From NCBI RefSeq assembly GCF_056712565.1, contig NZ_CM160072.1: DNA of 64,000 bases; one strand, written 5' to 3'. Position numbers: made by a program. Every line of letters begins with the position of its first letter. Position 1 is the first letter of the stretch. Positions 3,001-6,000 of this stretch are shown piece by piece.

Positions 3001-6000
3001 CAAGGCTGGGTTCTTCTGACGGGCGGCGGCACATGGATGTGCCTTTAAAATAATCATTGGCGATGTGATGTAGATTCGCGTAATATTACCTTACGGGTAA
3101 GAAAGCGTTTTTAATCTTCCCTTCAAAACGCGTCCTGTAGCCAAACATGGGAGGACGAAATGAAAACAAATACAACAAGAAAAGCGATGCCATACATTAT
3201 CCCAGAAGCAGATTTCGACAGAAAACTGAACATGTCTGAGAAGAACACTAGTCACACCGAAAGCTACTTAGCGAAAGGTGTGGTTGATTTCGTTCTTCCG
3301 GGATTCACAACACCTTATGGTTATCGCCTTGTAAAATCTTGTAATGGCGATCATTACAGAATGATTACTACCAGCGATACTCCAGAAACGGTGTATGCGG
3401 TTAAGTTAATCTTTCGGGAAGATATCGTCGAAGCTAAAAGAACATGTACGCAGATCATGGTATGGCGTACGCCTAATGTTATTCATGACCGTGCTGTTCA
3501 TGGTTTGCCTCAGATTTTTTTTCAGTTCTTCCTAGAGCAATATGCGATCGTTGTATCTGATGAGCAACAAACAATCGATGGGAGAAGATTCTGGGAAAGA
3601 ATGATTTCTTGGGCTATAAACACCCCGGGATATAATGTATACGTTTCAGATGGCTCTGAAGAAGATAGACCTCTTAGCTTCATGACATCATGGGATGATT
3701 TCTATAGCCAGTGGGCTGATTTCTGTTGGGGCAGTGATAAAGATGTGCATACCCACAGACTACTGGTTATAAGCAAAGATAAACTGCATTAATAGAAGCC
3801 CGCAGCGCGGGCTTTTTTGTGGACGAAACAAAAGTCAGTGCTACACTCATTGACGCCACATTGAGGTGGCTTATAGATGGAAATTTCACAATGAAAAAAA
3901 CATTTGCTGCACTGTTCGTTTTGTTGTCTCTGGTAGCTTCAACTCAGGCCTTTGCCGGTCGTTGTCAGCACGACAGCGATACTGCTGCTGACGGCTCCCG
4001 CTGCGGTGGGCGTTCTGCGGATTCCCGCCCGGGCGGCGGTGGCATTCGTTAAAAACAAGGCCGCGAAAGCGGCCTGTGACATGTCACGCTACATTGATAT
4101 ATGATTCATAAAGTAGCTTAAAGATTTACTTCCCAGAAAAGAAATTTCTTTTCCTGGATATGTCGCAATAATTGAGCATGACTTATCCCCGTTAGAGGTA
4201 ACAAATCCTGAATAACCTACTTGTTCTTTACCATTTTGTTGCTTGGCTAAAAAGTAGAGGTAGCTTATCTTTTTGCCCTCTGGGTAAAACTCTGCCAAAC
4301 CAGTATCGGTGATTGAATATTTTATTCTCCCGCCTTGAGTAACGTTTTCCATCTCAAGTTTAGCTATGTCTTTTCTGTTGTATTCAGCATTGATTTTCCT
4401 TTCGAAATCAATGTTGTTTTCAAATGAGTAGGAAGCAACAGTCTGAATAGATGGGAACACGTTTATCTGGATGCCCCCACAGTCGGCACAGGTATAAAGG
4501 TATGAATCAGATGGAATCCCCATAAAAGAAAACTGAGTTACCTTAAATTTATCGCTATCTCCAAAGTATTGAAGTTCGCATTTAACATTTTGCCCTGCAA
4601 AAGAAAATGCAGACATCAATATTGAAACAAAAAATATAATTGCCTTCATTATTATTTACCTAGCATGAACTGCGATGGTGGGATCAGAAAGTCGTTCCCC
4701 TGCTCACGCTCAACACGGCGCTGATAACGCTCAAGAGAGCCTGGGTCAAGGGCATCTTGTATCCGGTTCAATATTAAACCATTCATCGCCGTACGAAGCC
4801 AGAACACGTTGAGGAATGGCGTATTGTCAAGTGCCGTGCGATACCAGTCACCCAAATCTGCATCCCCTCTCGTGGTCTGCTGGAGCAGCGTGATAATGCT
4901 GTCAGCGTTCGATGCTGCTGGCCCCATTAGCGACGTAACCGGCCCGGCCCCCATGCGGTTGACCTCACCAAACATGAAGTCACCCAAGATGCCAAGACCG
5001 CCCCCCTGAGATGCGGCTGCGAGAAACGTCTTGGCATCTGCCGGGCGTGGTGTTTGCCCTTTCAGCATGAGTTTTGACTGCATGGAGATATAACCAAACA
5101 TAGTCGCCCAGACAAAGAGGTTTGCAGCACCAAGGAAAGCCCCCTTCCCGTTACGTAGCAGCGCATTCGTCAGCGATCCGGTTTTCGACTCACCAAGCCC
5201 AGCAGGAATATAACCACGCCCGAATACTTCGCGTCCTAGTACGTTCTGCATGAAGCTTGCAGTGAACGATTTGTACTGACCAGCGAATCGTATTGCTTCC
5301 CCAGCCACCGTTCCTGGCACCGTGCCCATCTTCATAAACGCCTGCGTGCGATCGCCAGGCTCTGACATGGCGATATTCAGACGGTCAAGGATGTAGCCGC
5401 GCAACTGCCCTTCCAATTGATCGCGTGCGTCAGCGATAGCGCGCTGCGTTGGTTTGATCCCCTTACTCTCTACATAACCGGCAATCACTTCGTCAGGCAC
5501 GCCGCGGATGCCGCTGGTCGTCATGAACTTACGACCTTCGCTATCGGCCATGTCCATGTTGCGAAAAATTTCCCACTCACGTTCGCCAATACCGTGCAGA
5601 TCCAGCACGCGTCGCAGGTCTTCCGGTAGCCGCGCATGAGACTGGTCAGCATTCTTTGCAAGCCAGTTGGTTATCATCATGGCGTTGCTGTTGCGACCGC
5701 TCTCGGTCCAGAAGTTCATGAGGTTGTACTTAAAGAAAAGCTGCTGCGCGCGACCAAGCTTTCCATTCAGCGTGTCATCACCAGATATGCGCCGGATGAT
5801 TTCCTGCGTCATGGAGTCGGAATAAACTCCGATAGAGGAAAGGATCTCTTTCTGCTCCGCGCTGTTGTAACGCGTGAAGCGGCCTCTCATAGCACCAAGC
5901 AACGCCTGCATAAAATTCTGCCCTTGGTAGCGCATCTCGGTAGCGGCGATAGGCACGTCGTTAAACGATGAGATTACCGCGCCACCAAGTTGGCTCATAC

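What the first reader, a model, noticed from the sequence alone, without database searches (positions are those of the whole stretch)
3850..4052. Candidate secreted 31-residue Gly/Arg/Cys-rich peptide
A canonical Sec signal peptide (MKKTFAALFVLLSLVASTQAFA) is followed by a short mature part with two cysteines and a poly-Gly tail, and promoter-like TTGACG-17-ATAGAT elements lie just upstream. A secreted peptide this small next to an unknown moron could be an exported effector, inhibitor or signal. The SD is weak, so the call is tentative.
Basis: seen in the sequence. Interest (0 to 1): 0.5.

Follow-up and report, generated by a model that had tools for sequence, protein, structure and literature searches.

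The report
Conserved small exported prophage moron peptide
The 53-codon reading frame is a real, strongly conserved gene, already annotated without a known function, that temperate phages and small plasmids carry as a self-contained cassette and that most likely releases a ~31-residue disulfide-looped peptide into the periplasm.

Summary
The ORF exists as described (window 3891-4052, +, 53 aa). It has an N-terminal Sec-type signal and a 31-aa mature part with two Cys.

**It is a real gene.**
- Across 10 loci from different genera, the mature part has dN/dS of about 0.05.
- In 80 E. coli prophage copies, all 18 polymorphic sites are synonymous.

**It is not new as an annotation.**
- RefSeq calls it WP_000708858.1, a hypothetical or "transmembrane anchored" protein.
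- It matches PHROG 14503, category moron.
- The cassette DNA is in 537 of 5426 complete E. coli genomes.

TTGACG-17-ATAGAT fails the consensus scan and is not conserved. A better candidate is TGGACG-16-TACACT (3820-3847), whose TAnnnT is invariant across genera.

**The gene is a discrete cassette (about 3796-4088)** set in mosaic flanks. It occurs in unrelated phages, in 3-kb Mob plasmids and in some chromosomes.

**The mature peptide is a free-standing copy of a ~28-aa mini-domain.** The consensus is GNC-x4-D-x-A-x-DGS-R-CG-x-R-[SA]-A-x2-RPGG. No Pfam, NCBIfam or PDB match was found, and 1975 protein clusters carry it.

**Function is untested.** My best guess is a periplasmic binder or inhibitor of an envelope target that protects the lysogen.

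The parts
3794..3819 (+). Rho-independent terminator of the upstream 210-aa gene (10-bp stem GAAGCCCGCA/GCGGGCUUUU region, then a T-run). It is the left edge of the conserved cassette.
   Evidence: The RNA fold is -15.3 kcal/mol and is followed by UUUUUU. Conservation among 80 E. coli loci begins here.
3820..3847 (+). Candidate sigma-70 promoter TGGACG-16 nt-TACACT. It is inferred and is below the scan's 9/12 threshold.
   Evidence: In alignment A3 the TAnnnT of the -10 (3842-3847) is invariant in E. coli, Cronobacter, Klebsiella and metagenome homologues. Each homologue has a -35-like hexamer 16-17 nt upstream. The promoter scan does not list it.
3855..3870 (+). Small hairpin GCCAC-ATTGAG-GTGGC at the predicted 5' end of the mRNA. 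Its role is uncertain; mRNA stabilisation is one possibility.
   Evidence: CCAC...GTGG is invariant, with a variable loop length, in 7 aligned loci. An analogous GCGCC-ACUCUC-GGCGC lies upstream of the Pseudomonas homologue. The folds are modest, with z-scores of -1 to -2.
3880..3882 (+). Weak Shine-Dalgarno element (GGA), 9 nt upstream of the ATG.
   Evidence: Homologues elsewhere have stronger elements (AGGAGG, GAGG, AAGGA).
3891..4052 (+). CDS of 53 aa plus stop. It equals RefSeq WP_000708858.1 with one A4T difference, and matches PHROG 14503.
3891..3956 (+). Signal-peptide coding part (residues 1-22, MKKTFAALFVLLSLVASTQAFA).
   Evidence: The sequence diverges but keeps its properties. Of 130 stand-alone precursors, 127 keep an AxA-type site just before the G-N-C. 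The n-region carries +1 or +2 charge and the h-region has a median length of 15. dN/dS is about 0.23.
3957..4049 (+). Mature peptide (residues 23-53). The core mini-domain is G23-G49, with Cys25 and Cys38.
   Evidence: The core is nearly invariant across genera, with dN/dS of about 0.05. The same module was found in 308 cluster representatives (50%-identity library) and in 1975 clusters (90%-identity library).
4058..4075 (.). G+C-rich hairpin AGGCCGC-GAAA-GCGGCCT directly after the stop codon. The T-run lies on the minus strand, so it terminates the converging late operon. On the plus strand it has no U-tract.
   Evidence: The fold is -17.9 kcal/mol on the plus strand and -16.5 kcal/mol on the minus strand.
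4076..4087 (.). Perfect palindrome GTGACATGTCAC. It is the right edge of the conserved cassette.
   Evidence: Conservation among 80 loci ends at about 4088. There are 3 copies in the window against 0.1 expected.

Best explanation
Window 3891-4052 is a real gene inside a ~290-bp self-contained cassette: upstream terminator, its own weak promoter, a short leader, the ORF, and a hairpin plus palindrome. Temperate phages and small plasmids carry this cassette as a moron, an accessory gene not needed for phage growth.

**Shown**
- The frame is under strong purifying selection.
- The cassette is a conserved island between mosaic flanks.
- It sits in accessory slots of unrelated mobile elements.
- The mature part is a stand-alone copy of a widespread, uncurated ~28-residue module with the consensus G-N-C-x4-D-x-A-x-D-G-S-R-C-G-x-R-[SA]-A-x2-R-P-G-G.

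**Inferred from sequence rules**
- The precursor is exported by Sec.
- Signal peptidase I cuts it after A-F-A22.
- The result is a soluble periplasmic peptide of 31 residues (about 3058 Da oxidised).
- Cys25 and Cys38 close a 12-residue Asp-rich loop.

**Inferred only from context**
- In the lysogen the peptide binds a broadly conserved envelope target. My first guess is a cell-wall-associated protein or enzyme.
- This protects or insulates the host envelope, for example against incoming phage, peptidoglycan-hydrolase attack or similar.
- I put about 0.25 on this last step.
For: **Gene reality**
- There are 55 close homologue clusters in E. coli, Shigella, Klebsiella, Citrobacter, Cronobacter, Salmonella, Dickeya and Pectobacterium.
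- The mature part is nearly invariant while the leader drifts.
- Mature part: pS 0.73 and pN 0.11, giving dN/dS of about 0.05. Leader: about 0.23.
- The 80 IMG/VR E. coli copies show 30 nucleotide alleles, 18 polymorphic sites that are all third-position synonymous, and one protein.

**Cassette**
- Identity to the window is 0.9-1.0 from about 3796 to about 4088 and drops to random outside.
- There are at least 25 upstream and at least 28 downstream flank classes.
- phiV10 keeps only the last ~20 nt plus the hairpin.
- A strong terminator lies upstream.
- TAnnnT is invariant 44-49 nt before the ATG.
- Homologues have their own terminators.

**Accessory slots**
- Between the tailspike and ejection genes in E. 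coli, Cronobacter, Klebsiella and Pseudomonas podophage prophages.
- Downstream of cI plus a Rap1a-family gene.
- After RelB/YafQ.
- Between Q and the holin.
- On 3.1-3.4-kb Mob plasmids.
- In a chromosomal site next to bacA and ffh.

**Database status**
- PHROG 14503, category moron, E 8e-40.

**Export**
- Signal-peptide statistics over 130 precursors.

**Module**
- 308 hits in one library and 1975 in the other.
- Architectures are described.
- The only Pfam partner domains are SH3_3 and PG_binding_1.
Against: - No expression, cleavage or disulfide data exist here.
- The Shine-Dalgarno sequence is weak.
- The proposed promoter scores 8/12 and the scan does not call it.
- On the plus strand the downstream hairpin lacks a U-tract.
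- The AlphaFold model is only moderately confident (pLDDT 75) and has no fold neighbour.
- In some larger family members, simple topology rules place the module on the far side of a hydrophobic helix from a signal-peptide-bearing N-domain. The compartment is therefore not uniformly clear.
- The functional step rests on context only. No PADLOC, Pfam, NCBIfam or PDB match was found.
Confidence: 0.65

Rival explanations
1. The N-terminal helix is not cleaved. The product is then a 53-residue inner-membrane-anchored peptide, as its database name says. Its periplasmic Cys-loop would contact a membrane sensor or transporter, in the manner of MgrB acting on PhoQ.
For: - NCBI and phage records name it 'transmembrane anchored protein'.
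- The kd-window scan flags residues 3-21 as hydrophobic.
- In group-A relatives the module is the only periplasmic part of a single-pass membrane protein. This is what a sensor-contact module would look like.
Against: - The h-region is about 15 residues, which is short for a stable anchor.
- An A-x-A site immediately before G-N-C is kept in 127 of 130 stand-alone precursors although the leader sequence drifts.
- The module also occurs far from any hydrophobic segment, as second tandem copies or after long linkers.
- No sequence similarity to MgrB was seen in any library.
Confidence: 0.15
2. The peptide leaves the cell and acts on other cells, either as a bacteriocin-like toxin or as a phage/plasmid communication signal.
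For: - It is small, exported and carried by mobile elements, including tiny plasmids where it is the only cargo.
- The extreme C-terminal tail varies between lineages.
Against: - No immunity gene, exporter or receptor gene travels with it in any of more than 12 contexts.
- A Sec leader delivers only to the periplasm of a Gram-negative cell.
- The conserved part is the whole 28-residue module, not a short variable tip.
- The same module is embedded in larger membrane and lipoproteins and sits in a housekeeping chromosomal site.
Confidence: 0.07
3. It serves the virion or the infection process (assembly or ejection) rather than the lysogen.
For: It lies between the ejection-protein and tailspike genes in enterobacterial prophages. 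It holds the same position, on the same strand as those genes, in Pseudomonas prophages.
Against: - In enterobacterial phages it is on the opposite strand.
- It is bracketed by terminators.
- It is deleted in the viable phage phiV10.
- Only 12 of 50,697 phage records carry it.
- It is also present in lambdoid phages at other slots, on plasmids and on chromosomes.
Confidence: 0.05
4. It is not a gene: a chance ORF in a G+C-rich, terminator-bounded intergenic spacer.
For: The Shine-Dalgarno sequence is weak and the ORF is short. Overlapping ORFs exist in other frames.
Against: - The substitution pattern is coding and frame-specific.
- Homologues exist across three proteobacterial classes, with different DNA and the same peptide.
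- Rfam finds nothing in the region.
Confidence: 0.01

Closest known systems
RefSeq WP_000708858.1 / phage TL-2011b F365_gp43 'putative transmembrane anchored protein' / PHROG 14503 'membrane associated protein' (moron category)
   Same: It is the same protein family. The PHROG match is full length (53/53, E 8e-40), and the window's copy differs from the common E. coli protein only at residue 4.
   Different: These are names only. I found no experiment or paper. The name implies an uncleaved anchor, whereas the conserved A-x-A site suggests cleavage.
Phage superinfection-exclusion and envelope morons: T4 Spackle (periplasmic inhibitor of the tail lysozyme), P22 SieA, lambda Bor/Lom, phi80/N15 Cor (from my own knowledge)
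   Same: They are phage-encoded, envelope-located and dispensable for growth, and they benefit the infected or lysogenic cell. From memory, P22 sieA lies in the equivalent slot between the ejection genes and the immI/ant-tailspike region. Related prophages here have arc and ant next to the cassette.
   Different: There is no sequence or fold similarity. Those proteins are 2 to 10 times larger, and no exclusion phenotype has been tested for this peptide.
Periplasmic lysozyme/PG-hydrolase inhibitors and T6SS immunity proteins (Ivy with its CKPHDC disulfide loop, PliC/MliC, Rap1a/Tai) (from my own knowledge)
   Same: They are periplasmic or membrane-tethered and use a disulfide-closed loop. Soluble and lipoprotein-anchored versions both exist. 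In one prophage, a Rap1a-family gene sits 9 nt upstream of a homologue in the cI operon.
   Different: No HMM match to any of these families. The His of the phage clade's C-x-H-D is not conserved in the wider module. This peptide has 31 residues against about 100-130.
MgrB (47-aa PhoQ regulator with two essential periplasmic cysteines) (from my own knowledge)
   Same: It has a similar size, an N-terminal hydrophobic segment and two conserved periplasmic Cys about 11-13 residues apart.
   Different: The MgrB helix is a stable anchor without an A-x-A site. There is no sequence similarity, and MgrB is chromosomal and PhoP-regulated.
Excalibur extracellular Ca-binding domain (Pfam PF05901) (motif recalled from memory)
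   Same: It is a small, secreted, Cys-bracketed module with an Asp-rich ...D-G-x-x-C motif.
   Different: No Pfam match at E<=1-5 for the peptide or for about 100 family members. The Cys spacing is 12 residues rather than about 30. It is not a member.

Membership tests
PHROG 14503 / NCBI 'transmembrane anchored protein' small-protein family | Full-length profile match | tested here: met
   phrog_14503 matches at E 8.4e-40 over 1-53 of 53 positions. The 55 phmmer homologues carry that name.
PHROG 14503 / NCBI 'transmembrane anchored protein' small-protein family | Leader plus the G-N-C...D-G-S-R-C-G-x-R-S-A...R-P-G-G core | tested here: met
   Invariant columns are C25, H27, D30, A32, D34, G35, S36, C38, R41, S42, D44-G49.
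Sec / signal peptidase I secretory precursor | Positive n-region, 7-15-residue h-region, small residues at -3 and -1 | tested here: met
   MKK, then a 15-residue uncharged stretch, then A-F-A|G. Of 130 stand-alone relatives, 127 keep such a site.
Sec / signal peptidase I secretory precursor | Actual export and cleavage | not testable with these tools
   This needs fusions or mass spectrometry. No signal-peptide predictor was available.
Bacterial lipoprotein (signal peptidase II), including bacteriocin-release proteins of small Col plasmids | Lipobox [LVI][ASTVI][GAS]-C | tested here: not met
   The residues before Cys25 are A-G-R (A-G-N in relatives), so position -1 is R or N. Some group-A relatives do have a lipobox.
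Moron (Hendrix/Juhala sense) | Inserted between genes that are adjacent in a related phage | tested here: met
   phiV10 goes from the Bro-N stop directly to the last ~20 nt of the ORF plus the hairpin. The flanks are mosaic.
Moron (Hendrix/Juhala sense) | Own promoter and terminator | tested here: inconclusive
   An upstream terminator isolates the gene. TAnnnT is conserved, but the promoter scores only 8/12. The downstream hairpin has no plus-strand U-tract here, whereas homologues have clear terminators.
Moron (Hendrix/Juhala sense) | Expressed from the prophage | not testable with these tools
   There is only indirect support: one homologue is in the cI operon.
Excalibur (PF05901) | Pfam HMM match | tested here: not met
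   No hit at E<=1 and none among the 92 larger members.
Arbitrium/RRNPP-type communication propeptide | Adjacent cognate receptor gene | tested here: not met
   No conserved neighbour across contexts.
Class II microcin / bacteriocin | Double-glycine leader, dedicated exporter and immunity gene | tested here: not met
   The leader is Sec-type. The 3.36-kb plasmid carries only mob genes besides it.
Known anti-phage defence systems (PADLOC) | HMM match | tested here: not met
   No hit at E<=0.1 for the peptide, its neighbours or larger relatives.

The most novel reading that the evidence does not exclude
The mature peptide is the minimal, free-standing form of an undescribed extracytoplasmic mini-domain: a ~28-residue, one-disulfide module found in about 2000 protein clusters across Alpha-, Beta- and Gammaproteobacteria. 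Phages and plasmids would deploy it as a soluble periplasmic decoy or inhibitor. The target could be the peptidoglycan-degrading ejection protein of an incoming phage, a T6SS cell-wall effector or a host envelope sensor. That would make it a new, very small class of lysogenic-conversion or exclusion factor.
Probability: 0.2. Interest if true: 0.65.

Novelty: new member of a known kind. Interest (0 to 1): 0.35.

Why it matters
- About one in ten complete E. coli genomes carries this cassette.
- Its product is among the most strongly constrained small proteins one could ask for, yet nothing is known about it.
- If the peptide is a periplasmic binder or inhibitor, it would add a 3-kDa player to phage-host envelope conflicts.
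- It would also give a handle on a widespread module that no curated library describes.
- If it has no phenotype, it remains an ordinary annotated hypothetical gene.

Tried and rejected
- **Pfam, NCBIfam and PADLOC scans.** I scanned the peptide, its neighbours and about 100 larger relatives. Nothing covers the module.
- **PDB sequence and profile searches.** No match.
- **AlphaFold model of the peptide.** pLDDT is 75, mostly coil with a beta-turn at A-D-G-S. Foldseek against PDB gave no match.
- **afdb50 fold library.** Unavailable.
- **Rfam.** Only chance-level hits, so there is no RNA-gene alternative.
- **Literature.** Searches by name, accession and PHROG id found nothing relevant.
- **The 77-aa GTG-extended frame (3819-4052, PHROG 3117).** Rejected. 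The extension overlaps the terminator tail, promoter and hairpin, and it is not conserved. It would also bury the signal peptide.
- **Metal binding through C-x-H-D.** Demoted, because His27 is not conserved in the wider family.
- **5' hairpin as a structured regulatory RNA.** Only weak statistical support, with z-scores of -1 to -2.
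Full report
**1. Observation**

An ATG at 3891 runs to TAA at 4050-4052 on the plus strand. The product is 53 aa: MKKTFAALFVLLSLVASTQAFAGRCQHDSDTAADGSRCGGRSADSRPGGGGIR.

- The leader has two lysines, a ~15-residue uncharged core and A-F-A before Gly23.
- The remaining 31 residues hold Cys25, Cys38 and a GGGG run.
- The Shine-Dalgarno element is weak: GGA, 9 nt upstream.
- The hexamers TTGACG (3851-3856) and ATAGAT (3874-3879) are present, 17 nt apart. The consensus scan does not call them. It finds fewer promoter-like sites in 3000-4800 than shuffles do, 1 against 4.4.

**2. It is a gene**

- phmmer found 55 clusters of close homologues in E. coli, Shigella, Klebsiella, Citrobacter, Cronobacter, Franconibacter, Salmonella, Dickeya and Pectobacterium.
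- In the alignment the leader drifts but stays hydrophobic, while the mature part is almost invariant.
- I extracted the DNA of ten homologues from different genera and elements and computed Nei-Gojobori statistics.
  - Synonymous sites are saturated: pS is 0.73 in the mature part.
  - Non-synonymous change is rare there: pN is 0.11, giving dN/dS of about 0.05.
  - The leader has pN 0.32 and dN/dS of about 0.23.
- Within E. coli the signal is even cleaner. The 80 IMG/VR prophage copies carry 30 nucleotide alleles with 18 polymorphic sites. All are third-codon positions, all are synonymous, and they give a single protein.
- The window's own copy differs by one leader residue (A4T).

**3. It is already annotated**

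- RefSeq annotates exactly this CDS as WP_000708858.1, 'hypothetical protein'.
- Phage TL-2011b calls it 'putative transmembrane anchored protein'.
- PHROGs holds it as phrog_14503 in the category 'moron, auxiliary metabolic gene and host takeover' (E 8e-40, full length).
- The cassette DNA is in 537 of 5426 complete E. coli genomes.
- I found no paper on it.

**4. Anatomy of the cassette**

Among the 80 E. coli loci, identity to the window is 0.9-1.0 from about 3796 to about 4088. It falls to random outside this range, and there are at least 25 different upstream and at least 28 different downstream neighbours.

*Left edge.* It is a strong terminator for the upstream gene (3794-3819, -15.3 kcal/mol plus a T-run). 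The small gene therefore needs its own promoter.

*Promoter.*
- I aligned the upstream regions of the E. coli, Cronobacter, Klebsiella and metagenome homologues.
- A TAnnnT at window 3842-3847 (TACACT) is invariant. Each sequence has a -35-like hexamer 16-17 nt upstream of it; in the window this is TGGACG, at 3820-3825.
- This predicts a start near 3853-3856 and a ~37-nt leader.
- The assignment is an inference. The promoter scores 8/12 and is below the scan's threshold.

*Hairpin at the predicted 5' end.*
- It is GCCAC-ATTGAG-GTGGC, at 3855-3870.
- CCAC/GTGG is invariant while the loop length varies.
- The Pseudomonas homologue has a different hairpin of the same shape.
- The fold statistics are weak.

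*Right edge.*
- A hairpin follows the stop codon (4058-4075). Its T-run is on the minus strand, so it terminates the converging late operon.
- Next comes the palindrome GTGACATGTCAC (4076-4087), where conservation ends.
- Homologues in other elements have ordinary plus-strand terminators and stronger ribosome-binding sites.

**5. Where it lives**

The window is a uetakevirus-like (epsilon15/phiV10-type) prophage. The cassette lies on the strand opposite to the late genes, between the tail-fibre gene and the ejection/internal-virion genes. Its neighbours there are Bro-N and unknown AT-rich genes.

| Context | Evidence |
|---|---|
| phiV10 has lost it and keeps only the last ~20 nt (GGGGIR-stop) plus the hairpin | |
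| Only 12 of 50,697 phage records have it | |
| Same slot in Cronobacter and Klebsiella prophages | |
| Same slot, on the same strand as the structural genes and bracketed by terminators, in Pseudomonas alloputida prophages | |
| A different phage type in Dickeya and Pectobacterium | |
| Immediately downstream of cI and a Rap1a-family gene in a lambdoid contig | |
| After a RelB/YafQ pair | |
| Between Q and the holin in a Rahnella prophage | |
| Only non-mobilisation cargo of 3.1-3.4-kb Mob plasmids in Salmonella and Klebsiella | |
| On rhizobial plasmids | |
| At a housekeeping chromosomal site next to bacA and ffh in a 1.65-Mb genome | |

This is the distribution of an autonomous accessory gene, not of a virion component.

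**6. The mature peptide is a module**

- A profile search of 1.84 billion cluster representatives found 308 hits.
- A profile search of the 90%-identity collection found 1975 hits. The named organisms include Enterobacterales, Pseudomonas, Paraburkholderia, Mesorhizobium and Devosia.
- The shared core is G-N-C-x4-[DQ]-x-A-x-D-G-S-R-C-G-x-R-[SA]-A-x2-R-P-G-G. Across 96 diverse sequences, C25, C38, R41, G48 and G49 are invariant.

The module occurs in several forms:
- alone behind a signal peptide, as ~50-aa precursors;
- as the only periplasmic part of single-pass proteins with a conserved cytoplasmic five-helix domain;
- at the extreme C-terminus of lipoproteins and other proteins;
- in two or three tandem copies;
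- as a four-Cys variant (CPCPYN...).

The only Pfam partner domains among the 92 larger members are SH3_3 and PG_binding_1, one protein each. This is a faint pointer to the cell wall. No Pfam, NCBIfam, PADLOC or PDB entry matches the module.

**7. How it most likely works**

*Shown.* It is a constrained coding gene. It is a discrete mobile cassette. Its product is a free copy of a widespread module.

*Inferred from established rules for Sec leaders.*
- The precursor is exported.
- Signal peptidase I cuts after Ala22. An A-x-A-type site sits just before G-N-C in 127 of 130 stand-alone precursors, and the n-region charge is +1 or +2.
- It is not a lipoprotein, because there is no lipobox.
- The two invariant cysteines, 12 residues apart, would be oxidised in the periplasm to close an Asp-rich loop.
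- AlphaFold gives a compact coil with a turn at A-D-G-S, at moderate confidence.

*Inferred from context only.*
- The near-invariance of a 28-residue surface across three proteobacterial classes points to binding of a universally conserved envelope partner.
- Carriage by prophages at lysogen-expressed slots and by tiny plasmids points to a host-level benefit.
- I favour a protective binder or inhibitor role (superinfection exclusion, or immunity against cell-wall attack), at about 0.25.
- An MgrB-like modulation of a membrane sensor comes next.

**8. What remains unexplained**

In some larger family members the module follows a hydrophobic helix that itself follows a signal-peptide-bearing domain. 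Simple topology rules do not put the module in the periplasm there. The meaning of the GTGACATGTCAC palindrome is also open.

**9. Verdict**

However, the gene is an already annotated, uncharacterised moron rather than a discovery, and the proposed promoter is probably wrong. The added value here is threefold: the strength of the constraint, the cassette boundaries, and the recognition that the peptide is a stand-alone copy of an uncurated, widespread mini-domain.

Noticed in passing
window 4076-4087, 21468-21479, 23919-23930: The perfect 12-bp palindrome GTGACATGTCAC occurs three times against 0.1 expected. Two copies sit between a stop codon and a terminator hairpin, and one sits about 10 nt upstream of a minus-strand start codon. 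It is also conserved beside the cassette in Cronobacter, Klebsiella, phiV10 and TL-2011b. It looks like a protein-binding site of this phage group.
   Followed up: partly
window 4089-4649 (-): The 186-aa ORF at the end of the ejection-gene operon has its own Sec-type leader (MKAIIFFVSILMSAFSFA|GQ). It is AT-rich (36% G+C) and matches PHROG 11983, of unknown function. It is one of at least 28 alternative neighbours at this position.
   Followed up: partly
It ends in a strong terminator at 3794-3819. Other prophages have a YafO toxin pair or other genes here.
   Followed up: partly
L003 (phage phiV10) 4070-4115: phiV10 retains only the last ~20 nt of the small ORF (encoding GGGGIR-stop), fused directly after the Bro-N gene stop. 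This is a deletion scar that removed the cassette and the gene upstream of it.
   Followed up: yes
L016 4927-6153: In a lambdoid metagenome contig the order is cI-like repressor, then a Rap1a-family (T6SS immunity) gene, then the small-peptide homologue. All are on one strand, and the gap before the small gene is 9 nt. This suggests co-expression with the repressor in lysogens.
   Followed up: no
proteins P0084, P0092, P0093, P0117, P0121, P0134, P0135, P0149, P0160, P0165, P0167, P0181, P0191, P0194 (alignment A5): This is a family of single-pass membrane proteins. The mini-domain followed by R-N-P-D-T-D-W is the only periplasmic part and is far more conserved than the rest. The cytoplasmic end is a five-helix domain predicted at pLDDT 94-97, with no informative fold neighbour.
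   Followed up: partly
proteins P0069, P0119, P0124, P0137, P0146, P0161, P0162, P0172; P0077, P0089, P0091, P0108, P0114, P0125, P0133, P0156: In these members a signal peptide or lipobox, an N-terminal domain and one hydrophobic (often Gly/Ala-rich) helix precede the module at the extreme C-terminus. Simple topology rules put the module across a membrane from the N-domain. This is unresolved.
   Followed up: no
proteins P0131, P0141, P0148, P0155, P0164, P0173, P0175, P0180, P0192, P0196, P0201: A four-cysteine sub-family (…Y-S-G-N-C-P-C-P-Y-N-x-A-x-N-G-S-R-C-G-G-R-S-A-Y-S-R-P-G-G-x-S-P-x-C-Y…) is flanked by helices. It is once fused to SH3_3 and once to PG_binding_1.
   Followed up: partly
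L025-L028 6001-6162: A 53-aa homologue (P0208) sits at a fixed, non-prophage chromosomal site between bacA (undecaprenyl-diphosphatase) and ffh in a ~1.65-Mb genome that recurs in many metagenomes.
   Followed up: no
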